Assembly (NCBI RefSeq): GCF_028641065.1
Contig: NC_073405.1
Span: 11,780,001-11,844,000, forward strand
Direction: 5' to 3'
Source of the DNA: Leucoraja erinacea
Taxonomy: Eukaryota
Length of the DNA stretch: 64,000 bases
Shown here: positions 4,318-30,486 of the stretch, one piece after another
Layout of the letters: each line of letters starts with the position of its first letter
Position numbering within the stretch: position 1 is the stretch's first letter
Notes under the pieces: model-generated
The model's database searches: none
Told to the model about the DNA's origin: nothing
What the model saw: only the letters and a program-made list of their open reading frames with translations
Program-made: the position numbers and the translations under genes

Positions 4318-4386
4318 ACAAGGTACTGTATTTTCATTCTGTACATTAATTTGTCTTAGAAGGCGCCTTTCATAGTCTTGATCCAT
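4318..4386 (-). CDS. FZR1: FZR1 first coding exon: MDQDYERRLLRQINVQNENTVPC (whole exon about 4318-4428 including 5'UTR)
   Basis: ATG at 4386, donor GTAAGT at 4317, acceptor tttcctgatttcAG at 4429-4430. MDQDYERRLLRQI is the FZR1 N-terminus. Confidence 0.97.
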
Positions 4387-10169: not shown

Positions 10170-12330
10170 GTTGCAGTGGCTGCTTCCAGTGCAGAACTCC
10201 ACCTGGATCAGATGCCCCTTGGCCCTGACACCGATTACCCACAGGCTCCAAACACCCTGACACCGTGCCCACCGGAACCAGGGCTCCATCTGCCACCAGG
10301 ACAAGCAACCCCTTAGCCTTTATACCCACTTCTCACATGGTAATCACCAGGATAAGACACATATACCCTATTCAGCTCAATCATTGGACGGCACCCCCTT
10401 AGTAACAGAAACCCCTGTCACCCGAGGACCCATTGGGATTATACCCATTGATAAACCCTGACACAAAGTGCCCATCACCACCAGGAAACATCTCCACTCC
10501 CATACCATCAAGGTACCTACCAAGAGCAGGCAATCCCTTTAGCCATTCACAGAGTAAACACTCAGACCTGTCACACACACCAAGCACTGTACTCCATTGG
10601 CACTAGAAACGCATCATCGAGAACCCACTGGCACAGTATGGCCTGATACCATGTGTCCACCAGCACCAAGCACAGCCATGGGACGTACTCCCGAGTAACA
10701 GGAAGCCCTGTCACCAAGGACCCATTGGGATTATACACACTAGGATATCAAGTTACCACAAGGATGCCCACCGCACAATCAATCTCTTCCCCCGTCTGAG
10801 CTGAGGCGGAGCTGGCGGCCTCCAACCTGCGACCGACCTCGAGGCTCCGGAGGTTGAGCCAGCCAGGACTTACCAACACGAGGCTGGCCATCTCCGAGCT
10901 GCGGCGGCGTTCAGGCAGCGGCATGACTCGGCGCTCTAGTGAGGGCGGCCGGCGCGGGGCTGAGACACTCCCGTGAGGGCGGCCCGGTGCGAGGCTGAGA
11001 CGCTCCTGTGGGGGCTGTGCGGGGCGGAGACGGTGCTCCGGTGGCGACCTGAATCCGGGGGTCGGCCGTGGGCCAGTGGACGACATCGTCGGGAGCTCGC
11101 GGGTCTCAGGCTGGTGCCTGTTTTACGGAGCTCCCGTGGCAACAGCTGCGTCCGCTGGACTGGAGAGCGGCAGCTTCGACCACCCCCGGGCCGCGGAGCT
11201 TGAACCGTGGGACTGACTTACCATCGCCCGGTGGGGTATCGCCTCAGCGCAGAGGGAGAAGAGGAGGGAAGAGACAGTAACCCTAAGACTTTTGCCTCGA
11301 TCACAGTGAGGAGGTGCTTGGTGAACTCACTGTGGTGGATGTTAATTTGTGTTTATTGTGTGTTGTTTATTATTACATGTGTGGCTGCAGGCAACGACAT
11401 TTCGTTCAGACCGAAAGGTCTGAGTGACAAATAAAGGATTCAATTCAATTCATTCAATCATCCTATTCACAGGATAACCACCAAGATCAGGTACACAGAC
11501 CTTGGTATCATGCACAGTGGTGGGGCTGTAGTGGCTAGAGTAACCCTTGTCACCAGGAACCCACTGGTGACAATCCTTACACCAGGCACCCACCAGGATC
11601 TGTTTAAGAAGGAACTGCAGATGCTGGAAAATCGAAGGTACACAAAAGTGCTGGAGAAACTCAGCGGGTGCAGCAGCATCTATGGAGGAAATAGGCAACG
11701 TTGTCTATTTCCTTCACTCCATAGATGCTGCTGCACCCGCTGAGTTTCTCCAGCATTTTTGTGTATCCACCAGGATCTGATGTACACACTAAGCACAGAC
11801 AAAGGGTGGTATTGCCTTGACAACAGGAACCCTTCACTAAATATCCACTGGAATCCCATTAAGACACCCACCACCACCAGGCATTCTCCTGCCACCAGGT
11901 ACATGGCAAGACCAAGCAACTTCTTAGTCTTTACACCTATCACAGGGTAGTTAGTAGGAACAGGCACGTATACCCAGGCACTATTCTCAGCCATGGGACT
12001 GCACCCACTTCTTCAAAAGCATTCACTGGAATGATACACCCTGAAGCGTCAGCCACTACTAGATTTTCGCCAGGACCAGACACACACACACACCCCTACG
12101 GAATCATGGAATGATATTGTATTGGCAACAAGAGCCCTACACTGAGTCCATCACCAGGTAACTGACAGGACCAAGACAAATCCCTTAACATCACCCACAC
12201 CAGTCAACCGGCTTATCTTCAACTTTATTCGCGCAGGACAACCAGCAGGATCCATGGCACCGAGCACAGACGTGGTCTGGACCCATCACCGAGGACTCCT
12301 AGTGTCCGAAATACCATCCCGGGGCAAACA
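10170..12330. repeat. Old degenerate tandem-repeat region (CACCAGG / TGTCACC / GACAC-rich), interrupted by insertions
   Basis: For example AGTAACAGAAACCCCTGTCACCCGAGGACCCATTGGGATTATA (10401) versus AGTAACAGGAAGCCCTGTCACCAAGGACCCATTGGGATTATA (10694); many CACCAGG motifs. Confidence 0.55.
10785..11458 (+). mobile_element. CpG-rich non-autonomous retroposon with AATAAAG and an (ATTCA)n tail
   Basis: Sharp GC-rich block ending GACAAATAAAGGATTCAATTCAATTCATTCAA. A related minus-strand tail lies at 15555-15705. Confidence 0.7.
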
Positions 12331-12399
12331 CTCGCCGGAAACAGTCACCGTTGACCCTCCCGGTCCCACACCCACCCAGTTGCTGTCACCGCCACCATC

Positions 12400-12790
12400 C
12401 CAGTCCCACATTCGTGTACCTACCGCCGCCGGCCGGGCCACGCTCCCCCGTCAGCCGCGACTCCCGCACAACATGGCGGCCACCGCTTCCGGCCGTCCGA
12501 CCGTTACCTTTGTGACGTCACCAGGATTCAAACCGCCGCCGGAAGTGCTGCGTTGCCACGGCGACGACGTTTGCATTTGCCTCCGGGCGATGCTTCGGAC
12601 CGGGACCGTTGAACGATGGGCGATGCTTAGGACCGATCGGAGCGCTCTCCGCCCCCCTTCCTCATTCCGCGATTCGCGCCGGAGTCTCGTTCGAGAGCTT
12701 TGCCCTGTAGGATCTTTGGCTTTGGCGGCGAAAAGCGGAAGGGATGCCCAGGGTCACGTGGAGGGGAGAGGGGCACTTCCGGCGAACATG
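12400..12790. promoter_or_regulatory. Bidirectional CpG-island promoter (FZR1 and the Harbinger-derived gene)
   Basis: YY1-like ACATGGCGGC 12471-12480; ETS/GABP CTTCCGG 12486-12492 and CCGGAAGT 12539-12546; palindromic CRE GTGACGTCAC 12512-12521; RFX X-box-like GTTGCCACGGCGAC 12552-12565. Confidence 0.8.
12424..12490 (-). other. FZR1: Probable non-coding first exon of FZR1 (TSS approximate)
   Basis: Minus-strand donor GGCG|GTAGGT at 12423 at the edge of a CpG island. The first FZR1 coding exon has an acceptor, so an upstream exon is required. Confidence 0.6.
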
Positions 12791-12949
12791 GCGGAGGAGA
12801 CGGCGCTCCCGCTCATGTTCCTGCTCCTCTTCCTGCTCACCAGGCGCCGGGCCGACCTGGAGCACACCAGCCTGGGCCAGAGGAACGACGCGCGGCGCAG
12901 GCTGCGGATCAGGCAGTATTTCCAGCAGCGGCAACGCAAGATGATTCTG
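12788..12949 (+). CDS. Harbinger-transposase-derived (HARBI1/ALP1-like) gene, exon 1 (54 aa, MAEETALPLMFLLLFLLTRRR..RQRKMIL)
   Basis: Good Kozak context AACATGG; donor CTG|GTAGGG in phase 0 joins in frame to the acceptor at 13611-13612. A hydrophobic then Arg-rich N-terminus is typical of PIF/Harbinger transposases. Confidence 0.75.
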
Positions 12950-13612
12950 GTAGGGGTGGGAGGGGGGTGGAGCGACGCGGCGGTGGGGTTGCCCGGGTTA
13001 CGGTGGGAGAGAGGCGATGCCCGGGTTACCGGTGGGGGAGGGGGTTGGAATTGATATTCCTGATTACGGGACGATGGGGGTATTTCGGGAGGGGGGGAGG
13101 GGTAATGATCGATTTACGTGGAGGGGGAGTTGATGTGTAGGAAGTAACTGTAGATGCTGATTTACACCTCAGGGTGCAATGGTATTCAACATTATTTATT
13201 ATTTAAAAACCTTGTGGTTAAGTGAATTCACTGTGTACTGATTTTACAATGATATAAATGTTGATTAGTGGTGGTATTCCTATTCAATTATGTAACTTGG
13301 ATATTTTTCTTTCTCTGTAAAATATTGTCAGGACAAGTGGAGAGACCTTTGTTGCAGTTGGCTACACACCCTGTGACCTGAAGTAATTAATTCAAATATT
13401 GGGTGCCTGAAATGAAAAATGGTCAACATTCCCCTCTTGAATGCAATCATTTCCAAGATATTCCTTTGCATGCTGTGGTACTTCAAGGCAGGAACTAGCT
13501 GTAATGGCAAGTCCCTTTGCAATCTAACTTTTTTTTCATTTATTTTTTTTAATTAAATCCTATGGTAGTTCAGGATGTTTTAGTCCATTTGTGATGATTT
13601 CTTTGTTTTCAG

Positions 13613-14728
13613 ATGGTGATGGCACACGGAAATAGTAGCACTAACTGTCGCAAACGAATCTGGTGTAAGCCAAGAAGTTCAGACTGGTGGGAACGTGTGG
13701 TTTTGGATGAGTTTCAGCCAAACGATTGGCTTGAAAATTTCAGGATGTCTAAAGAAACATTTTTTCATGTCTGTAACAAACTGAAGCCCATGGTTTCTCG
13801 CCGAAACACCCACCTACGTCCAGCGCTACCCCTTGAGAAGAGAGTGGCAGTGGCGTTTTGGCGACTTGCTACTAATGTGGAATACAGAACAATTAGCCAT
13901 TTGTTTGGGATTGGCCGTTCAACTGTGTGTAAATGTGTAAGGGAGGTGTGCCATGCCATAGTGACCCTTTTAAAACCTCTGTATCTGAGTCTGCCTTCTG
14001 ATGATGGATTTGAAATGACGGCTCAGAGATTTGTAAGGAAGTGGAATTTCCCCCAGTGTGTTGGTGTGATCGACAGTTGCCACATACCCATCAGTGCCCC
14101 ACCACAATATCACAGAGATTTCTTAAATGGAAAAGGGTGGCATTCTGTTGTGTTACAAGGAGTGGTTGATGATACTGGGAAATTCTGGGATGTCTGCACT
14201 GGATCTTCTGGTAGTTCTCTTGATGCAAAAATTCTGAGGAACTCTGATCTGTGGACAACGGCTACTGAAAGAAGGTTGTTCCCTGACTGTTCAAAAAACA
14301 TTATAGGAACTCCAGTGAACTACCTCCTAATAGGCAGCTCTTCGTATCCACTGCAGGAATGGCTCCTGAAGCCCTATTCAGAAATGGAAGCACTAACGCC
14401 GCATCAGCTTGTGTTCAATTACACTTTGAGCCAGGCTCACGCCATAATAGACGACACGTTCGGACGGCTCAAAGCACGTTGGCAGTGTCTTCTCAAGAGG
14501 AATGACTGCAGCCTAGAACTGATCCCGACCATGATCACTGCCTGTTGCATTCTTCACAATGTCTGTGAGAAACATAACGATGGATTTAACAGTGAATGGC
14601 TGGGTGTTCTGGGCCAGGAGGAATTTCCTCAGCCAAACCAAATGGTGTCAGATAGAACTGTTGACAGCCAAGCAGAAGAGATCCGTGAGGCATTGTCTGT
14701 TTATTTTATGGGTCTGCATGAAAGATAG
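13613..14728 (+). CDS. Harbinger-transposase-derived gene, exon 2 (371 aa; DDE_Tnp_4-type fold; full protein 425 aa)
   Basis: Uninterrupted ORF with FRMSKETF, an HTH region (YRTISHLFGIGRSTV), FPQCVGVIDSCHIPI, FGRLKARWQCL and ACCILHNVC. Polypyrimidine tract and AG directly upstream; AATAAA at 14829 and 15096. Confidence 0.93.
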   Translation: MVMAHGNSSTNCRKRIWCKPRSSDWWERVVLDEFQPNDWLENFRMSKETFFHVCNKLKPMVSRRNTHLRPALPLEKRVAVAFWRLATNVEYRTISHLFGIGRSTVCKCVREVCHAIVTLLKPLYLSLPSDDGFEMTAQRFVRKWNFPQCVGVIDSCHIPISAPPQYHRDFLNGKGWHSVVLQGVVDDTGKFWDVCTGSSGSSLDAKILRNSDLWTTATERRLFPDCSKNIIGTPVNYLLIGSSSYPLQEWLLKPYSEMEALTPHQLVFNYTLSQAHAIIDDTFGRLKARWQCLLKRNDCSLELIPTMITACCILHNVCEKHNDGFNSEWLGVLGQEEFPQPNQMVSDRTVDSQAEEIREALSVYFMGLHER

Positions 14729-16184
14729 TTCTCTTAGTTGTAAAATTTTTAGAAATTGTAAATAATATGATTTTTCACTAGCTATGTGAATACGAATGTC
14801 TTGATATTGTGGTACGATATGTCATTATAATAAAACTGTATGCCTCATGGTTATTAAATGAAAATGAAATACACTAAACAATTATTTGGTTAAATACAGC
14901 TGCTGCTAGCTCAGTAGTAGATTTATTTATTTAGTTCCAAGCATGAGAAAGAAATTGAGAAGGGAAAGTGAGTGTTTTGATTGATGTCTAGATCTCATCA
15001 TGCAGTGGTGCAAGACATGACTTGTATTTTCTATTTTCTATAATCATTATTAGTAATTTTCTGATATGATACTTGAGCATATATTTTCATTGTAGAATAA
15101 AGAAAATAGCTTGAATAGTATTGAATATCTCACTAGTGAATTCAATAATACAGCATGGAAACAAGCCTTTTAGCGCAATGACACATCATGTATCATTTTT
15201 TTTAAAGTAAATGAGATATTTAACTGGGTTTTTAAATAACGAATAAGGTAGACCTTTAAATGTGGGTCAAGAGGTTATGGGGAGAAGGCAGGAAAATGGG
15301 GTTAAGAGGGGAAGATAGATCAGCCATGATTGAATTTTGGAGTAGACTTGATGGGCCGATTGGCCTAATTCTGCTTCTATCGCTTTTATGAACTACATAA
15401 ACTGCAAATGACCCGCTGAGTTACTTCAGCACTTTGTGTCTATCTTTGGTATAAATCAACATCTGCAGTTCTTTGTTCCTACATCTTTAACCAAATTTTT
15501 TTTAAACAATGAACAAGTCATCTGAAGAAGGGTCTCGACCAGAAAAGTCACCCAAGAGTCAAGAGTCAAGAGTCAATTTAATTGTCATTTGGACCCCTAG
15601 AGGTCCAAACGAAATGCCGTTTCTGCAGCCATACATTACACACAAATAGACCCAGACACAACATAAATGCATAAACATCCATCACATAGCTGTGATGGAA
15701 GGCCTTCCCACCACTGCACTCTCCCCCCCCCCCCCCCCCCCCGATGTCAGAGTCCTCGATGTCAGAACCCATTCCTTCGCTGCCTGTCCCGCTGAGTTAC
15801 TCCAACATTTTTTGCCGATCTGCAGTTCCTTCCCACACGAGTCGTCTTTAACCTTTTTTTTAAGTGAATCGGGTACATCTTTAACTATGCGTTTTTAAAC
15901 ATGGAACGAGATACATCACTAACCATGGATATGTAAACACATTTTAAACTGAACATTGACTGGAATGTAATTTAATGGATGTGTGAACATGGTTTAAACT
16001 GAGATGCAACATTATGAATTTGTAAAGTAAGTTTAAACATTGAGAAACAACTTCATGGATTTGTAAACAAGTTTTAAACATTGACAGGGTAACAAATTTA
16101 AATGGGTTTTAAGATTTGTGGACAACTTTAAACACTGAAGGAGTTGATTCGGTCACTTTCTCCCACGGCCCTCCCTCCCGAAGG

Positions 16185-16275
16185 CCCACAGCACGTGACT
16201 GAGCTCTGATTGGCTGCTGACCGCGGTGGGGGCGTGGCGTGGGTGACGTGCCCCCGGACGGGGTGGAAGATGGCG
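16185..16275 (+). promoter_or_regulatory. DOHH proximal promoter
   Basis: E-box CACGTGAC 16192-16199, inverted CCAAT (CTGATTGGC) 16206-16214, GC box GGGGGCGTGGC 16228-16238, TGACGT, and YY1-like AAGATGGCGG overlapping the ATG; CpG-rich. Confidence 0.75.
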
Positions 16276-16543
16276 GACGACAAGGTGGTGGAGGCGGTCG
16301 GCAAGGTGCTGGTGGACGCGTCGAGGCCGCTGAAGGAGCGGTTCCGGGCGCTCTTCACCCTCCGCAACCTGGGCGGCGCGTTGGCCATCGAGTGGATCTC
16401 GAAGGGTTTCTCGGACGAGTCGGCGCTGCTGAAGCACGAGCTGGCCTACTGCCTGGGTCAGATGCAGGACGAGCGCGCCATCCCCGTGCTCCGGCGGTTG
16501 CTGCACGACCGCGGCCAAGAGCCCATGGTCCGGCACGAAGCAG
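16270..16543 (+). CDS. DOHH: Deoxyhypusine hydroxylase, exon 1
   Basis: [52 protein letters not shown]; 274 nt; donor G|GTGGGG. Confidence 0.97.
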
Positions 16544-17342
16544 GTGGGGACCCGGGTCACGGCACCATGGGCTGCTGGGGACACAAGAGACTGTGGCTAA
16601 AAGGAATCCCGAGCAAAGCACAAAGTGCTAAAGACTCGCTGGGTCAGGCAGGATCTGTGGAGGGAGTGTGTAGGAAGGAGCTGGTTTAAACCGAAGATAG
16701 GCACAAAAAGCTATAGTCATTCAGGGAGACCTGACAGGCACAAAAGGTTGGAGTAATTCAGCGGGAGTGAAGCATCTCTGGAGAAAAGGACTAGACGTTT
16801 CAGGTTGAAACCCTTCTTCAGATTGAGAGTCGGGGAGAGGGAAACTAGATGTGTGAAATGGTACAGGGAATAAATCAATGAAAGGTATACAACATGACAA
16901 TAAAGCCAGCAATGATGATCAAGGAATAGTGGAGCCCTCAGTAGGTATTGTTGGCTGTGGGAAAGGTGACAATGAGTAATATAAACTGAATCTCAGCAGG
17001 ACAACAGCGAAACTAGTATGCTGACTTGGATGGGGGAGGAATGAAGAGAGAAGCAAGGGTTACTTGAAGTTGGAGAAATCAACATTCATACCGCAGGGTT
17101 ATAAGAGAAGATAGACCCAAAAAGCTGCAGTAACTCAGCACATCAGACAGCATCTCTGGAGAAAAGGAAAAGGAATTTTGTGTCGAGACACTTCTTCTGA
17201 AACGTGACCTATTTTCTCCAGAGATGCTGTCTGACCTGCTGAGTTCTAGTTTCGCTGTTGTCCTGCTGAGTTCCAACTTTTTGTGGCTATCTTCAGTTTA
17301 AACCAGCTTCTGCAGTTCCTTCATACACATTGCTGGGTTATA

Positions 17343-18056
17343 GGGTGATTTCACGAAAGGTCACTGGAGCGTAGATCCGCAGCCACGTGACCGAAAATCT
17401 CAACTGGAGTACATGTTATACATCGGTACATGTTAGTGAATGGGAAAACACGCACTTTCCCACCCGTTAAAAACATGGAAAACGGCCGATATTTGGGCTG
17501 AAATTTTCTGTGCTAGTCGGAGTGACCGTGAAGCACAGCGACCTAAATTTTCAGGCAAAAAAAAAGATAGCAAGTAAGGTAATTACAAGAGGGAACTGAA
17601 GGTGGCAAAACAGCGGAAGTGCTTAGCAGACATTTGCCATGGAGATTTAAAGATCCAAAATATCGGGAATTATCGCGTTTGCTCGCTGAATTTCATCAAA
17701 AGTAAGGCATTATTAACTTGCTTTTGATGAAATTCTGCGAGCAAACGCGATAATTCCCGATATTTTGGATCTTTAAATCTCCGCGGCAAGTGTCTCCACC
17801 TTCAGTTCCCTCTTGTAATTACCTTACTTTCTGGTTTTTTTTGCCTGAAAATTTAGGTCGCTGTGCTTCACGGTCACCCCGACTGGCACAGAAAATTTCA
17901 GCTCAAATATCGTCCGTTTTCCATGTTTTTAACGGGTGGGAAAGTGCGTGTTTTCCCATTCATTAACATGTACTGATGTATAACATGTACTCCAGTTGAG
18001 ATTTTCGGTCACGTGGGTGCGGATCTACGCTCCGGTGACCTTTCGTGAAATCACCC
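17343..18056. mobile_element. Foldback non-autonomous DNA transposon (near-perfect palindrome of about 714 bp) in DOHH intron 1
   Basis: Begins GGGTGATTTCACGAAAGGTCAC and ends GTGACCTTTCGTGAAATCACCC. Arms are complementary up to a short spacer near 17705-17718; flanked by TATA on both sides. Confidence 0.92.
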
Positions 18057-18337
18057 TATAAACTGTCCAAGCTAAATATGTAGATGGAGGAATTTGGATT
18101 AGAGGATAGAGTCTTTGCAGGAAACAGGTTGGGTTGAAGTGTCTAGATAGTTGTGGGAGAGTCAATATTTTTAAAATAGATGTCAGTCGATATTCTATCT
18201 TCTGTGATGGAAACGGTGAGATCAAGAAAGTGGGGGGGAGATGATGGAGATGGACCACGATGAGTTGTACTACCGCACATTCAAATTATTTATTTTCCTG
18301 AATTCTGATTTTTGTTTTTGTCACAATATTATTTCAG

Positions 18338-18414
18338 GCGAGGCGTTGGGAGCTATTGGGAAACCAGAGGTCCTTGAAATGTTGAGAAACTACTCAAGTG
18401 ATCCAGTCATAGAA
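18338..18414 (+). CDS. DOHH: DOHH exon 2 (GEALGAIGKPEVLEMLRNYSSDPVIE)
   Basis: tttcAG| ... |GTAAGA; 77 nt; frame-consistent. Confidence 0.96.
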
Positions 18415-18851
18415 GTAAGATTATCTTAACTTAATTTTACAGATCCACATTTTAATATTCAGTGAATTAGGTATGCCTGCTTGCATTACTTTAAAAGGTT
18501 TGAACGACAATACTCTTTTAAGGAGGAAATTGATTTGTTGATAAATTTGTTATTCATATTTTCACTTTCACAAAAGCAGCAGATGTAGATTACTATGTTA
18601 AATTAGTTAAAATAAAATCCAATTGTACCGAAGCTTCATTAGTTAACTATATAGTTCCTTTTTGTATAGAATGTATAATCGTGTGATTATTTTCTCCCAC
18701 TCAATGGGATTTTGGTGTAATTTCAGAACTCTAACTTGCCATTGCGTTATGCTTGCAGCCTTTCAGTTACCTTTCCTAGATCCAACTGGTTATAAAAATG
18801 GCAGGCAACACAAATGGCTTTCTTCCCACCCTAACCCTCAAAGTGAACTAT

Positions 18852-19640
18852 GTAGGAAAGAACTGCAGATGCTGGTTGAAATCAAAGGTAGATACAAAAT
18901 GTTGGAATAACAGCGGGACAGGCAGCATCTCTGGAGAGAAGGAATGGGTGATGTTTCTGGTCGAGCCCCTTCTTCAGACTGATGTCAGGAGAGTAGGCGG
19001 GACAGAGATAGAATGTAGTCGGAGACAGTAAGACTGGTGGGAGAACTGGGAAGGGGGAGGGATGGAGAGAGAGGGAAACCAAGGGCTATTTGAAGTTGGA
19101 GAAGTTAATGTTCATACTGTTGGGGGGGGTATAAGCTACCCAAGCAAAATATGAGGTGCTGCTTCCTCCAATTTGCCCTCCAATGGTTTGGCATCCAAAG
19201 GATGCCCAGGACAGAAAGGTCAGATTGGGAGGGGGAGTTAAAGTGCTGAGCAACCGGGAGATCAGGTAGGTTAAGGCGGACTAAGAGGAGGTGTTCAGCG
19301 AAACGATCGCCGAGCCTGTGCTTCGTCTCACCGATGTATGGGCGTTGACACCCCGAACAGCGGATACAGCAGAAGAGGTTGGAGTAGGTGCAAGTGAACC
19401 TGTGCCTCACCTGAAGAGACTGTTGGGGTCCTTGGATGGAGTCGAAGGGGGAGGTAAAGGGACATCTCCTGCAGTTGCAGGGGAAAATACCTGGGGAGGG
19501 GGTGGTTTGGGTGGGAAGGGACGAGTTGACCAGGGAGCTGTGGAGGGAAAGGTCTCTGGGGAAAGCAGAAAGGGGTGGAGATGGGAAGATGTGCCTGTAG
19601 TGGGGTCCCGTTGAAGGTGGCAAAAGTGTTGGAGGAATAT
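18852..19640 (-). mobile_element. Penelope-like element 3' fragment (GIY-YIG domain and pLTR)
   Basis: Minus ORF 19105..19623 contains CIRCSGCQRPYIGETKHRLGDRFAEH; homologous to 48370-49100. Confidence 0.85.
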
Positions 19641-19642
19641 AT

Positions 19643-20650
19643 GCTGGGTGCTGGGACCCCAGCTATTTACAATATATATTAATGATCTGGATGAGGGAAT
19701 TGAAGGCAATATCTCCAAGTTTGCGGATGACACTAAGCTGGGGGGGCAGTGTTAGCTGTGAGGAGGATGCTAGGAGACTGCAAGGTGACTTGGATAGGCT
19801 GGGTGAGTGGGCAAATGTTTGGCAGATGCAGTATAATGTGGATAAATGTGAGGTTATCCATTTTGGTGGCAAAAACAGGAAAGCAGACTATTATCTAAAT
19901 GGTGGCCGACTAGGAAAAGGGGAGATGCAGCAAGACCTGGGTGTCATGGTACACCAGTCATTGAAAGTAGGCATGCAGGTGCAGCAGGCAGTGAAGAAAG
20001 CAAATGGTATGTTAGCTTTCATAGCAAAAGGATTTGAGTATAGGAGCAGGGAGGTTCTACTGCAGTTGTACAGGGTCTTGGTGAGACCACACCTGGATTA
20101 TTGCGTACAGTTTTGGTCTTCAAATCTGAGGAAGGACATTATTGCCATAGAGGGAGTGCAGAGAAGGTTCACCAGACTGATTCCTGGGATGCCAGGACTG
20201 TCTTATGAAGAAAGACTGGATAGACTTGGTTTATACTCTCTAGAATTTAGGAGATTGAGAGGGGATCTTATAGAAACGTACAAAATTCTTAAGGGGTTGG
20301 ACAGGCTAGATGCAGGAAGATTGTTCCCGATGTTGGGGAAGTCCAGGAAAAGGGGACACAGCTTAAGGATAAGGGAGAAATCCTTTAAAACCGAGATGAG
20401 AAGAACTTTTTTCACACAGAGAGTGGTGAATCTCTGGAACTCTCTGCCACAGAGGGTAGTCGAGGCCAGTTCATTGGCTATATTTAAGAAGGAGTTAGAT
20501 GTGGCCCTTGTGGCTAAGGGGATCAGAGGGTATGGAGAGAAGGCAGGTACGGGATACTGAGTTGGATGATCAGCCATTATCATATTGAATGGCGGTGCAG
20601 ACTCGAAGGGCCGAATGGCCTACTCCTGCACCTAATTTCTATGTTTCTAT
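19643..20650 (+). mobile_element. CR1 LINE, 5'-truncated, nested in the Penelope fragment
   Basis: [20 protein letters not shown] region followed by an open ORF to 20560, then a 3'UTR ending (TTCTATG)n. Confidence 0.92.
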
Positions 20651-20980
20651 GCTGTATGCGGTCCTTGTTGCGAATGGGGGGGGGGAAGGTAAGGGCCTCA
20701 TCTATAATGGAAGAGGGATTTACCAAAGAATGCGGACATCTCCGATGATCTAGTATGGAGAACCTCATCCTGGGCGCGGATGCGGCGTAGACAGAGGAAT
20801 TGGGAGGATGGTATAGAGTCTTTACAGGAAGCTGAGTGGGAAGAAGTATAGTTTGGATAGTTATGGGAATCAGTGGGTTTGTAGTAGATGTCGGCCAATA
20901 GATCCAGAAACGGTAGGGAGATGTTGGAGATGGTCCAAATGAATTTGAGTGCAGGATGGAAATTAGTCGTGAAGTTGGTA
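20650..20980 (-). mobile_element. Continuation of the Penelope-like element (RT C-terminal region)
   Basis: TTNFHPALKFIWTIS..LPFLDL..YYKPTDSHNY (minus ORF 20698..21114), homologous to 47920-48200. Confidence 0.8.
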
Positions 20981-21030
20981 CCTACCCTCAAAGAAAAGTT
21001 TTGTTTTCCAGCTTGTGACTGCCGATAAAT

Positions 21031-21157
21031 TGATCTATAGACATTAAGACTGGTTTCATTAATTCCTGTTAATTTGGTCAAATCTGGTGCTGGTTTCTGG
21101 CTTTGATTTGTCATGTTGCCAGGAATTAATGAAACCAGCCTTAATGTCTAGAGATCA
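21031..21157. repeat. Inverted repeat with 38-bp arms (2 mismatches) and a 51-nt spacer
   Basis: TGATCTATAGACATTAAGACTGGTTTCATTAATTCCTG ... CAGGAATTAATGAAACCAGCCTTAATGTCTAGAGATCA. Confidence 0.85.
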
Positions 21158-21374
21158 CCTATTAGTGGAGGTGAGGATTCTTCAATTCCCTGCAAATCCA
21201 TGTGCCTATCAAAAGGCCCCTTAAGTGCCACTATCATATCTGCCTCCACCACCACCCCAAGCAGCTGGTTCCAGACACCCACCAGCATCTGTGTGCATCT
21301 GTTGCACATCTCCTTTAAACTTTTCCACTCTCATCTTAAAGCTATGTCCTCTAGTCTGACATTTCCATTTGAAA

Positions 21375-21526
21375 ACCATGTATCATTTTCCTTCCACTTC
21401 ACAATTATGCGCCACTTTGTGTTGGGCTATCACATAAAATCCCAATAAAATACATTTACATTTGTGGTTGCAACGTGACAAAATGTGGAAAAGTTCAAGG
21501 GGTATGAATACTTTTGCAAGCCACTG
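21375..21526 (+). mobile_element. Tc1-like transposon right terminal fragment
   Basis: Ends GGGGTATGAATACTTTTGCAAGCCACTG followed by TA, the terminus pattern of fish and amphibian Tc1 elements. Confidence 0.75.
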
Positions 21527-23557
21527 TATGTTTATCAGGTTTCCCCTCAGCTTTTAGTGTTCTAGATTGGGCTGACTCACTGGTCTGGATTACTTAGTTC
21601 ACTGGTTTACCTCCTTTTTGAACATGAACTCCACTTCACTTTTATAAGAAATATATCACCTCAGAAACATCTGCATTATGATGGATTGTGGTTGTCCCAG
21701 GTCTGCTGACAACCTCAGACGAGGGTAGCTGGCATGCTGAATATTTAGTGGGGGGGGTGGGTTGTGACCTTTCAGACTAAATTGCCTCTTACTGAAGCCT
21801 CATCTTCCCCATGTTTCCGGTTCCGGCGCTGTGCACACGGCAGCCAGCCAACAGTTGATAGCTATCAAACTTTACTACTCCTCCCCCTTCTGTCGTGGGG
21901 TAGACTGAGACTGACTGACACCCTCCCCAATCTTTGCACATCCCCCAAGCCTTTCCACTCGTCACTTTACTTTCATGTTTCATGTGTTTTGTGTTTTTAT
22001 GACAGTTGGCAGATCAATTTCCCTCCTGGGATAAATAAAGTTGTATGGTATTGTAGATAATCTCTGGTATCTGCCAGACTGGGCCCTATTTCCCAGGTTG
22101 TCAATTCCTAATGCAGTATAAATCAGTCATTTTGCTGCATTCTCACCTTGTCTGTGGCATTCTATTGATGTTGGTCTAACATTTATCACAGTTTGCGACT
22201 GGTTTAAAAAAAAACGGAGCTGAGTAGAAATTATTAGACAAAACGTGCCCTTCTGCCACTCTGTTGCACACTGCCACTCCTTCACAGCCTGTCCTGTGAC
22301 CTCCAATGAAATTTTCTACCTAATAGCAATGTATTTGGTTTTTAAATGGCCTTTAAAAATGTCAACCAGATTTGTTTGATTTATTAGTACAGAGCTGAGT
22401 TAAAAGCCATCTGCTTTTTCTTTCTGCCTGGGGACTTGGGTTTCTCTGGTTTGGTTCCAGATGCAGGAAATAAGGATCCTGATCTGTGCTCAGTTCAGTG
22501 AGTTCAGCTTTATGATGTGTCAGAGACCATAGGACACTACAATTGACCTTAAATCAGTGAGAGAAAATATAGTTAAGCCTGCATTCTGATTTCTCAACCC
22601 TATCCAGAGACTGCAATGCAGCATTGATATGTCAAATTTGAATTATTTATGTTCAGTATTTCGTATTCAACATTCAGAACAATCTTCAAAAGGTGTAGCT
22701 GGTCAAAATGATGCAACAAGTTCTCCAGAACTTGGAAAAACATTACTAAGTGTTATTCACTTATCTTTTCATTGCAACAGTAGCAACATTTTTTTGATAG
22801 TATCATGGCTTTCTAAACAATAGCCGTAATACGAGTTATCAGGAAATTGTTCTTTCACAACTCAGTCATAAACTGCAGTAATCATTAAGTAGTTGGCTGA
22901 GCTGTGCCCAACTCCAAGCCTCAGTAATATGGGTTTCAAATATAAGAAGAGAAATTGAAGGCACATTTTGGATGATATGAATAGATTTCAGTTGAATTCT
23001 TGTCTGCTTTGGTTGAATTAATAATCCATGATAAACCTTCAATTTAGATTCTCAGATAGCACTGTGTGCAATGTGTAGGGGAGGGGGGTGGTGATGGAAA
23101 GAAAATGGGTTGCAAGAGTGTCTACAAATCATATTTCTGTTCAGTTGCTATTGCTCAATAAAAAGATGCTGAGTTTATCTGACGTGTCTGCAGCAGTTCC
23201 CGACTCACGAGAAGTTGTCTGTCCGTTTCCCTCTACATATGCTGCTTGACCCACTCAGTTCCTCCTGCACTGTATTTTGCTGATGATTTTTATATTGGTG
23301 AAAAAAATAAAAATGCCAGACTTCAGTTTAGAAGATGGTGTCAATCTCTTTTGTAGTTCTGTTACTATTGTTGAATGAAGTGACAGCCCATGAAGTATTA
23401 TACTCCAAGGATCAACAAGGTGTTGAAAGCCATGGCAGGTGAAAGTAATGGAATCTGAATTGAAGCATGGAACTGTGGTTTTAATTTACTTTGGAATGTA
23501 TGTAGTTGTCAAATGCTTTTAAAAAGATTAATTAGCGTATTGTATTCATTTTTTTAG

Positions 23558-23792
23558 GTGGCTGAAACGTGCCAGCTTGCAGTTAAACGGATTGAATGGC
23601 TACAGAACAACAAAGACCTCAGCGGAAGCCAATACTGTTCAATTGACCCTGCTCCCCCATCTCCAGAGAAAGACATTCAAAAATTGAGGGAAACTCTGCT
23701 GGATGAATCCTTGCCCTTGTTCGACAGATACAGAGCTATGTTTGCCCTTCGTAATATTGGAACTAAAGAAGCAGTCCTGACTTTAGGCGATG
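23558..23792 (+). CDS. DOHH: DOHH exon 3 (VAETCQLAVKRIEW..SIDPAPP..LFDRYRAMFALRNIG..LGD)
   Basis: ttttttAG| ... G|GTATGA; 235 nt; frame-consistent. Confidence 0.96.
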
Positions 23793-24890
23793 GTATGAAG
23801 TTCATTTGTTTCTGCCATGTCATTCATTCACCTTGGGTGTTAGGTTAGATTGTAACGTAACACCTAAATCATGTTAAGTTTTCACTCTGACTTGGTTTTT
23901 TGACCAACTAAGGTTGTTCTTTAGATTTATCATGGGGTGAAAATTAATGTTCTCTACTGACTACATCAGAATGTTGTGTGCTCTAGCTTTCATCTCTGAG
24001 ATCAGAGGGCGTATAAACTAGATTAATATTCCAATAGAAAAATGCGGCATGGCTTTGATGTCTTAGAGTGAAACTATAAATTGGGCCTTTTTCTGATTTC
24101 TTCAGAACATTAAGATCTTATCACATCATCCAGGGAAGAAAGAAAATAATGACATTTCTCCCATTGTGGTTGGTATTTATTTGAACCAATCATCCAGTTA
24201 GTTGCTATTTTTAGTCATTAAAACAACTATGAAATATTTTTCAGTGACATGAGATCCTCTATGGGGGGAAGCCTGATAAATAGTGAAAGATGCTGTAGCT
24301 GAGATTGGTGGTATGCGTATTCAAGCTTTTGTGTCTTCTGTGATGGGAGAAGGAATAAAGGGAATAACTGGGTTAGAAAAGGTTTAGGAATGTATTGCAG
24401 ATGCTGGTTTAAACCAGAGATAGACAAAGTGCTGGAGTAACTCAGTTGGACAGGCAGCATCTCTTTGGATCAAGACCCTTCTTCAAACGTCACCCATTCC
24501 TTATCTCCAGCGGTAGAAAAAGTCCTTGATTGCTAATTACTGAAAAATAGGCTCCTTTCAAATCATGTGTTGAAGGTGTTTTTGCAGCAGGGAAGCTAGT
24601 TCCTGTTCTCACTGACCAAAGTAGCAACTACTAAACGCGATGGGTTTTGGTTTAGAAAAATGTGCAGCTACAATTTTCGCATTTCGGAGTGCTATTTACT
24701 CTTGTTTAATCTTGCAGATAGATTACGCCAAGAAGCTTTGTTTACATTTGAGAAAGATGTAAAGCAACAAATTACCTTGTTATTTACAATGCTCAATAAA
24801 TTTCCACACTTGGATGTATCAGGTCTTACACATGGGATCTTCCTAATTTAACTTGTGGCATCTAACTTCATGTGCATTTTCCTTGTCCAG

Positions 24891-25204
24891 GTTTACAATG
24901 CGGCAGTGCATTATTTCGACATGAAATCGGCTATGTCTTTGGTCAGATGCAGCATGAAGCCAGTATTCCTCCGCTTGTAACAGCGTTAAAAAAAATGGAT
25001 GAGAGCTCCATGGTACGTCACGAGTGTGCAGAAGCTTTGGGTTCCATCGCCAAAGAGCCGTGTGTGGAAGTATTGAAACAATATCTGCACGATAAAGAAC
25101 GCGTTGTGAAAGAGAGTTGTGAGGTGGCACTGGACATGTCTGAATACGAAAACAGTCCCGAGTTCCAGTACGCTGACAGTCTGATCAGATTACAGCCAAG
25201 CTGA
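24891..25204 (+). CDS. DOHH: DOHH exon 4 to stop codon (total CDS 900 nt, 299 aa)
   Basis: [55 protein letters not shown]. All four His-Glu metal-binding motifs are present across the exons. Confidence 0.97.

Positions 25205-30243: not shown

Positions 30244-30486
<243 letters not shown>

What the first reader, a model, noticed from the sequence alone, without database searches (positions are those of the whole stretch)
12788..14728. Intact, probably domesticated Harbinger-transposase gene with an altered catalytic site between FZR1 and DOHH
Seen: a spliced 425-aa ORF with no stops or frameshifts, in a region where the recognisable transposon ORFs are truncated or decayed. No TIRs and no Myb/SANT partner ORF are visible, and it has poly(A) signals. 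The first acidic motif is kept (VIDSCH, codon 14072, D208), as is SLDAK (14222, D258). The usual LGDxxYP motif reads IGSSSYP (codon 14336, S296) and IExxFG reads IDDTFG (codon 14450, D334). Established: Harbinger transposases were domesticated as vertebrate HARBI1 and as plant ALP1/HDP1, which act in chromatin complexes; I know of no such gene between human DOHH and FZR1. Inference: a nuclease-dead host gene distinct from HARBI1, possibly ancient and lost in mammals, that may pair with a Myb/SANT (MSANTD/NAIF1-like) protein encoded elsewhere.
Basis: partly seen in the sequence, partly recalled or inferred. Interest (0 to 1): 0.85.

Follow-up and report, generated by a model that had tools for sequence, protein, structure and literature searches.

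The report
Ancient tamed Harbinger transposase beside DOHH
This is a single-copy gene made from a jumping-gene enzyme that sits next to DOHH from sharks to crocodilians, turtles and birds, appears to be lost in mammals, has lost its DNA-cutting residues in sharks and skates, and likely works as a non-cutting partner of a DNA-binding protein.

Summary
There is a two-exon, 425-aa PIF/Harbinger transposase ORF between FZR1 and DOHH, with the catalytic triad reading D208-S296-D334.

It is a domesticated host gene:
- Single copy; the next genomic hits are 25-36% identical.
- Orthologs from chimaera to birds form one clade (UFBoot 100) that broadly follows the species tree.
- It shares a contig with DOHH in 28 of 30 species compared, with accessions within 2 in 11 of 25.
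- Among elasmobranchs it is about as conserved as DOHH.
- A spliced assembled transcript crosses the junction.

No mammal, frog or lizard ortholog appeared, which argues it is not HARBI1. Teleosts keep two copies.

One correction: triad loss is lineage-specific. All 10 chondrichthyans lack DDE, but 28 of 72 clade members keep it.

The likely mechanism is a non-cutting scaffold bound by a Myb/SANT partner, as for HARBI1-NAIF1 and ALP1-ALP2. This is inferred and untested. I found no description in ten literature searches. Verdict: new member of a known kind.

The parts
12788..12949 (+). Coding exon 1 (54 aa). Hydrophobic stretch plus basic residues forming a predicted long N-terminal helix, the region that binds the Myb partner in related systems
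   Evidence: orthologs start at the equivalent Met; helix 6-59 in the model of the chimaera ortholog; PMC7282668 passage
12950..13612 (+). Phase-0 GT..AG intron
   Evidence: junction crossed by Logan protein P0128 and RefSeq model P0122
13441..13506 (+). Coding part of an alternative exon with a GC donor; gives isoforms that lack the N-terminal helix
   Evidence: matches residues 1-22 of the Amblyraja model; 6 of 12 Logan cluster members start with the extra Met it supplies
13613..14728 (+). Coding exon 2 (371 aa plus stop): HTH_Tnp_4 and DDE_Tnp_4 (RNase H-like) domains
14072..14074 (+). D208, first triad Asp, kept; the next residue is Ser rather than the usual Gly
14222..14224 (+). D258, extra conserved Asp, kept; the preceding His is replaced by Leu
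14336..14338 (+). S296 in place of the second triad Asp
   Evidence: 10 of 10 chondrichthyans
14450..14452 (+). D334 in place of the triad Glu
   Evidence: Asp in 9, His in 1 of 10 chondrichthyans
14829..15101 (+). Candidate poly(A) signals at 14829, 14853 and 15096
   Evidence: use not tested
12001..13000 (.). CpG island, likely a promoter shared head-to-head with FZR1 (inferred); contains an upstream in-frame ATG at 12590 used by the 491-aa RefSeq model
   Evidence: GC 0.57-0.65, CpG o/e 0.83-1.12
4318..4386 (-). FZR1 first coding exon (left neighbour, divergent); right end exact, left end approximate
16270..25201 (+). DOHH coding exons (right neighbour, same strand)

Best explanation
This is a single-copy host gene derived from a PIF/Harbinger transposase, fixed beside DOHH across jawed vertebrates, whose skate protein lacks two of three catalytic residues and likely acts as a non-cutting scaffold that a Myb/SANT protein encoded elsewhere would bind and bring to chromatin. 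Shown: intact spliced ORF, single copy, an orthologous clade from chimaera to birds, linkage to DOHH, strong protein conservation, two copies in teleosts, and independent loss of different triad residues in different lineages. Inferred: origin in the jawed-vertebrate ancestor; loss in mammals, frogs and lepidosaurs; no nuclease activity in chondrichthyans; binding of the N-terminal helix to the C-terminal part of a Harbinger-derived Myb protein; a role in a chromatin complex. My odds by step: domesticated gene 0.97, not HARBI1 0.93, non-catalytic in skate 0.85, Myb-partnered chromatin scaffold about 0.6.
For: Copy number: 1 match at 100%, the other 110 of 111 at 25-36%; the only other DNA matches are to a ~40-nt intron piece. 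Control: a mobile Harbinger family in the same genome has copies 83-99% identical in DNA with D-D-E. Orthologs and tree: clade of 72 of 125 sequences, SH 0.999; UFBoot 100 on 41 of those 125. Fused transposase+DOHH gene models exist in tinamou and Labeo, and the tinamou model repeats the window's three-gene order. Constraint: 80-97% identity in 7 elasmobranch pairs against 83-99% for DOHH. Active site: the triad is broken at different positions in chondrichthyans, caecilians, bonytongues and the teleost a copy. Gly after the first Asp is kept in 1 of 72 against 32 of 37 DDE-intact outgroup proteins, and His257 likewise in 1 of 72 against 32 of 37. Fold is kept: pLDDT 86, pTM 0.78, best PDB match piggyBac transposase E=3.7e-4. 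Precedent: the nuclease N-terminus binds the Myb C-terminus in HARBI1/NAIF1, HDP1/HDP2 and ALP1/ALP2 (PMC7282668 passage); ALP1 keeps DDE in basal plants and lost it in angiosperms (PMC4671723 passage). The genome holds five solo Myb_DNA-bind_4 loci, at least three with the C-terminal helix.
Against: 28 of 72 clade members keep D-D-E, including all 11 turtles, crocodilians and birds in the set and 6 of 6 coelacanth, bichir, sturgeon and holostean proteins, which suggests selection on those residues in some lineages. No partner, localisation or phenotype is known. dN/dS could not be computed without ortholog DNA. Synteny rests on contig lengths and accession order, not fetched DNA; 14 of 25 pairs were not within 2 accessions, and 2 teleost a copies lie on another contig than DOHH. 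No HARBI1 sequence was obtained for the tree. An isoform lacking the N-terminal helix is common: 6 of 12 Logan members start at the alternative exon and only 1 crosses the exon 1 junction.
Confidence: 0.6

Rival explanations
1. The gene is a domesticated but still active nuclease in lineages with D-D-E (coelacanth, holosteans, turtles, crocodilians, birds, teleost b copy), used for host DNA processing; chondrichthyans and others changed its function later.
For: D-D-E in 28 of 72 clade members, uniform in the archosaurs and turtles sampled; metal-type Cys/His residues are conserved.
Against: The Gly and His beside the active site are lost across the clade. The triad was lost several times while the protein stayed conserved, and the triad-less chondrichthyan protein is about as conserved as DOHH.
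Confidence: 0.17
2. It is an anti-transposon decoy that soaks up Myb or transposase subunits of active Harbinger elements and blocks their movement.
For: The skate genome holds a multi-copy Harbinger family with intact D-D-E. Harbingers are absent from mammals (PMC9392472 passage), where the gene also seems absent.
Against: It is only ~30% identical to the resident family. Slow evolution that follows the species tree is not what an arms race usually gives. Birds keep it although Harbinger activity there is doubtful (recalled).
Confidence: 0.12
3. It works without a Myb partner, for example through its own HTH domain or through the short isoform lacking the N-terminal helix.
For: HTH_Tnp_4 E=3.4e-6; short isoforms in Logan and RefSeq records; no Myb gene nearby.
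Against: The exon 1 peptide is conserved (70-72% to horn shark and chimaera, about 50% to coelacanth and sturgeon). Every domesticated pair examined kept the interaction (PMC7282668 passage).
Confidence: 0.09
4. It is HARBI1 itself or a recent intact transposon copy.
For: Databases label several orthologs 'putative nuclease HARBI1' or 'ALP1-like'; no HARBI1 sequence was compared directly.
Against: Single copy, no TIRs, deep synteny. No mammalian protein among the 120 listed of 499 hits or among 94 of 94 hits to the turtle ortholog, whereas HARBI1 is conserved in mammals (PMC9710019 passage).
Confidence: 0.02

Closest known systems
HARBI1 (with NAIF1), jawed vertebrates
   Same: Harbinger transposase-derived single-copy gene of similar age; DDE_Tnp_4 domain; no Myb gene in cis.
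   Different: Not found in mammals here. Locus FZR1-DOHH, whereas HARBI1 is recalled as lying beside ATG13 on human chromosome 11. About 425 aa against about 350 (recalled). No direct sequence comparison was possible.
Plant ALP1 and HDP1 (with ALP2 and HDP2)
   Same: Domesticated Harbinger nuclease with a lineage-specific loss of DDE residues; source of the partner model.
   Different: Plant ALP1-like proteins fall in a separate branch; no link to PRC2 or acetyltransferase complexes is shown here.
Five putatively domesticated Harbinger ORFs of Anolis (442-466 aa; PMC3014272)
   Same: Solo Harbinger transposase ORFs without TIRs in a non-mammalian vertebrate.
   Different: The squamate proteins recovered here (449-462 aa) form their own clade and, in Podarcis and Zootoca, lie on other contigs than DOHH. 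Whether they match the Anolis ORFs was not tested.
Mobile PIF/Harbinger transposons (zgc:113227-like teleost and invertebrate proteins; the skate multi-copy family)
   Same: Fold and domains; 42-47% identity to the nearest such proteins.
   Different: No TIRs, no Myb ORF, single copy, altered active site, fixed locus.
Insect DPLG genes
   Same: Recurrent domestication of PIF transposases, often with a Myb/MADF partner (PMC9710019).
   Different: Independent events; not compared by sequence.

Membership tests
PIF/Harbinger transposase superfamily (protein) | DDE_Tnp_4 / Plant_tran domain with N-terminal HTH | tested here: met
   Atlas features 0.97-0.99 to DDE_Tnp_4 clusters
PIF/Harbinger transposase superfamily (protein) | RNase H-like DDE fold | tested here: met
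   model of the chimaera ortholog; top PDB hits are transposases and integrases, only one at E<0.001
Autonomous Harbinger transposon | Intact D-D-E triad | tested here: not met
   D-S-D
Autonomous Harbinger transposon | Terminal inverted repeats and 3-bp target duplication | tested here: not met
   flanking inverted pairs are dispersed repeats
Autonomous Harbinger transposon | Second ORF encoding a Myb/SANT protein | tested here: not met
   0 of 20 Myb matches on this contig; 0 of 100 minus-strand ORFs left of the gene hit a Myb family
Autonomous Harbinger transposon | Multiple similar copies | tested here: not met
Domesticated transposase gene | Single copy, no TIRs | tested here: met
Domesticated transposase gene | Same locus in distant species | tested here: met
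   28 of 30 same contig, 11 of 25 adjacent accessions; indirect, no ortholog DNA fetched
Domesticated transposase gene | Tree follows species tree | tested here: met
   some short internal branches are unresolved or misplaced
Domesticated transposase gene | Purifying selection (dN/dS well below 1) | not testable with these tools
   no ortholog DNA; proxy is protein identity about equal to DOHH within elasmobranchs
Domesticated transposase gene | Expression | tested here: met
   Logan proteins that need splicing: 1 of 12 across the exon 1 junction, 6 of 12 across the alternative junction; no read-level test
HARBI1 ortholog | Present in mammals | tested here: not met
   no mammal in 120 listed of 499 hits or 94 of 94; cluster members were listed only in part
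HARBI1 ortholog | Groups with HARBI1 in a tree; HARBI1 locus | tested here: inconclusive
   four attempts to find skate HARBI1 gave nothing
HARBI1/ALP1/HDP1-type nuclease-Myb pair | Binds a Harbinger-derived Myb protein | not testable with these tools
   needs co-IP; candidate partners exist in the genome
ALP1/HDP1-type chromatin cofactor | Subunit of PRC2 or a histone-modifying complex | not testable with these tools
   needs IP-MS

The most novel reading that the evidence does not exclude
Non-mammalian vertebrates carry a hidden Harbinger-derived toolkit that human-based screens missed, and this protein is the nuclease-derived half of a pair whose Myb half is fused to the ACC-synthase-like aminotransferase ACCS, tying a transposon-derived chromatin factor to a PLP-fold enzyme; mammals lost both halves.
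Probability: 0.1. Interest if true: 0.85.

Novelty: new member of a known kind. Interest (0 to 1): 0.62.

Why it matters
The papers read name HARBI1 as the only Harbinger transposase-derived gene shared across jawed vertebrates, and the systematic screen started from human proteins (PMC9392472 section 6), so a gene lost in mammals would be missed. This adds a second, apparently independent domestication of similar age. It is kept in chicken-type birds and in two zebrafish copies, where it can be knocked out. It is also a natural experiment: the catalytic triad is intact in some lineages and broken at different residues in others, and the two zebrafish copies differ (G-D-D against D-D-E). That makes it directly testable whether domesticated Harbinger nucleases need catalysis, an open point for HARBI1 too. 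Automatic labels ('HARBI1', 'ALP1-like') currently hide it.

Tried and rejected
1) TIRs. The inverted pairs around the gene were rejected as dispersed repeats. The CpG-rich stretch near 10.8-11.4 kb ends in one of those repeat arms and is probably a repeat, not a promoter (inferred).
2) Complex prediction. Transposase residues 1-425 with the C-terminal helix of the skate Myb-ACCS protein scored 0.00 and 0.00, verdict 'no answer'; my alignments were not used. This is no evidence either way.
3) Finding skate HARBI1 for the tree. The ATG13 family search and three recalled short motifs gave 0 matches; uninformative.
4) RNA runs. No listed holder is on record as RNA, and no read-level result was obtained, so start sites, junction depth and read-through remain open.
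5) Hagfish protein as ortholog. Rejected: it groups with zgc:113227-like proteins (UFBoot 96).
6) Squamate proteins as orthologs. Rejected: separate clade and other contigs.
7) Fused transposase-DOHH models (tinamou, Labeo). Read as merges of neighbouring genes, not true fusions: 2 models among some 200 hits, one of which also swallows a third gene.
8) No solved relative by sequence.
9) Pfam found no family at E<=0.001 in 46 longer ORFs to the right, and one sub-threshold hit in 100 minus-strand ORFs to the left.
10) Literature. Ten searches found no description of this gene. One search was swamped by number matches (20 of 982 listed, none with a gene term). The only paper with DOHH, FZR1 and transposase is a chicken GWAS that lists unnamed LOC genes. 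Sinzelle 2008 and 2009, Smith 2012 and Cosby 2021 were not held under the ids tried; Kapitonov and Jurka 2004 and Repbase were not seen; no supplements were read.
11) Two look-ups of earlier scan findings returned nothing.

Full report
**Observation.** The sequence is as described. ATG 12788 to 12949 (54 codons) splices through a GT..AG phase-0 intron to 13613-14728, giving 425 aa with no internal stop. D208, D258, S296 and D334 sit at the codons given. Exon 2 matches DDE_Tnp_4 (E=2.6e-28), Plant_tran and HTH_Tnp_4. FZR1 starts at 4386 on the minus strand and runs left; DOHH runs from 16270 to 25201 on the plus strand. The gene starts in a CpG island at about 12.0-13.0 kb, probably shared head-to-head with FZR1 (inferred). 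The protein equals residues 67-491 of a RefSeq skate model, XP_055514595, so it is annotated automatically but unnamed.

**Not a mobile element.** In the 2.19-Gb own genome the protein finds itself and 110 other places at 25-36% identity. The DNA finds only itself, apart from a ~40-nt intron piece. The top other hits are a true Harbinger family: copies on many contigs, 83-99% identical in DNA, with a shared end motif and D-D-E in the 4 of 4 copies aligned. That is an internal control for what a live element looks like here. No Myb ORF lies on this contig (0 of 5 and 0 of 15 matches). The inverted pairs flanking the gene are dispersed repeats.

**An old orthologous gene.** The search with exon 2 returned horn shark (85%), coelacanth (63%), sturgeon, bowfin and gar (59-61%), turtles, crocodilians and birds (53-55%), caecilians and axolotl (50-52%) and most teleosts (about 47-60%) (120 of 499 listed). 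I chose 125 sequences by hand from the hits. Of these, 72 form one clade (SH 0.999), and a 41-sequence subset gave UFBoot 100. Inside it, chondrichthyans, amphibians, turtles and archosaurs, and ray-finned fish separate broadly as in the species tree. Teleosts have two copies, which fits their genome duplication (inferred). Hagfish, sturgeon B, catfish and squamate proteins fall outside.

**Synteny.** This was read from database metadata. The ortholog and DOHH share a contig length in 28 of 30 species, and accession numbers are within 2 in 11 of 25 species with both, including skates, sharks, coelacanth, a caecilian, gharial, alligator and two turtles. The 2 misses are teleost a copies; a b copy is merged with DOHH in a Labeo model. 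A tinamou model merges transposase, DOHH and a small membrane protein in the order seen in this window at 14147, 16270 and 30280.

**Constraint and expression.** Within elasmobranchs the protein is 80-97% identical against 83-99% for DOHH in the same 7 pairs. It is 79% identical to chimaera, but it diverges faster than DOHH towards bony vertebrates (50-62% against 70-75%). Assembled Logan contigs from related skates give one protein that crosses the exon 1 junction, and 6 of 12 that begin with an extra Met explained by an alternative exon ending at 13506 with a GC donor. These need spliced transcripts. No read-level evidence was obtained.

**Losses.** No mammal, frog or lepidosaur protein falls in the clade, although lizards, tuatara and a frog appear in the DOHH search of the same database. 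A turtle query would be expected to rank a mammalian ortholog near the top, and 94 of 94 hits held none. Limits: this covers predicted proteins only, the search depends on shared words, and cluster members were listed in part. HARBI1 is conserved in mammals (PMC9710019 passage; PMC9392472 section 6), so this is very likely another gene. I could not obtain HARBI1 for the tree.

**Active site.** All 10 chondrichthyans read D-S-D or D-S-H. Caecilians (3 of 3) lost the first Asp; the teleost a copy lost the first Asp and often more; bonytongues vary. In contrast 28 of 72 clade members keep D-D-E. Across the clade the Gly after the first Asp and the His at 257 are each kept in only 1 of 72, against 32 of 37 DDE-intact outgroup proteins. 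One triad change strongly reduces rice Ping transposition (PMC4671723 passage), so the skate protein very likely does not transpose DNA. The simplest reading is that the conserved function does not need catalysis; catalysis in birds, turtles or gar is not excluded. The fold is kept: the chimaera ortholog models at pLDDT 86 with a long helix at 6-59 and an RNase H-like core, and its best PDB matches are transposases.

**Mechanism.** In mobile Harbingers and in HARBI1/NAIF1, HDP1/HDP2 and ALP1/ALP2, the nuclease N-terminus binds the Myb protein's C-terminus (PMC7282668 passage), and NAIF1 imports HARBI1 into the nucleus (PMC9392472 passage). The exon 1 peptide here is conserved. The genome has five solo Myb_DNA-bind_4 loci: two resemble MSANTD1 and MSANTD2 (names recalled) and three others keep the C-terminal helix, one of them fused to ACCS. 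I therefore favour a Myb-partnered, non-cutting chromatin scaffold (about 0.6) over a lineage-limited nuclease (0.17), an anti-transposon decoy (0.12) or a partner-free role (0.09). The partner step is inference only.

**Novelty.** The kind is known. I read passages of PMC9392472 (plus sections 6 and 7), PMC4671723, PMC9710019, PMC9179366, PMC5753468, PMC5741667, PMC3014272, PMC7282668 and PMC12649552; none describes this gene in what I saw. PMC3014272 reports five putatively domesticated Harbinger ORFs in Anolis, which match the separate squamate clade in length rather than this gene (inferred). The human-based design of the main screen explains the gap. Ten searches cover open-access papers and bioRxiv only, so an entry in Repbase, a subscription paper or a supplement is possible.

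**Verdict.** Real, ancient, apparently undescribed domesticated Harbinger transposase gene; new member of a known kind; interest 0.62.

Noticed in passing
L035:1135-1797 and L055:5812-6456 (G000 contig C18), minus strand: A complete Harbinger-type Myb protein (Myb domain plus C-terminal helix) forms the N-terminus of the ACC-synthase-like aminotransferase ACCS. Atlas clusters show the fusion in chordates. Human ACCS is recalled to lack it. One literature search found nothing.
   Followed up: partly
L036/L063 (contig C9) and L037/L066/L067 (contig C18): Two further solo two-exon Myb_DNA-bind_4 genes with the C-terminal helix and no transposase hit nearby; possibly undescribed domesticated Myb genes.
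   Followed up: partly
proteins P0354, P0355, P0357, P0378: A squamate clade of Harbinger transposases with all three triad residues lost, on other contigs than DOHH; probably a separate domestication.
   Followed up: partly
proteins P0068/P0177 (hagfish), P0084/P0183 (sturgeon, paddlefish), P0359/P0361/P0364 (catfish): Further long-branch, conserved Harbinger transposase clades, each a candidate domestication; the hagfish pair lacks the second Asp.
   Followed up: no
window 13441-13506: Alternative exon with a GC donor giving isoforms without the N-terminal helix, also in Amblyraja and Pristis models; could regulate partner binding.
   Followed up: partly
L002-L020, L031-L034 (many contigs): A multi-copy Harbinger family with open 446-464-aa frames and intact D-D-E, apparently recently active in this genome.
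   Followed up: partly
window 30280-30468: Exon of a small membrane protein downstream of DOHH, 60% identical to the tail of a tinamou model; recalled as SMIM44-like.
   Followed up: no
window 11639-11765: Short hairpin repeat with 49-nt arms at 98% complementarity; its arm has 21 copies in the window.
   Followed up: partly
window 19108-20560: Overlapping retroelement fragments inside DOHH, by motif a LINE reverse-transcriptase tail and a Penelope-type endonuclease (recalled); no Pfam hit at E<=0.001.
   Followed up: no
proteins P0015 and P0444 (zebrafish): Both teleost duplicates are retained; copy a reads G-D-D and copy b keeps D-D-E but has the longer branch.
   Followed up: partly
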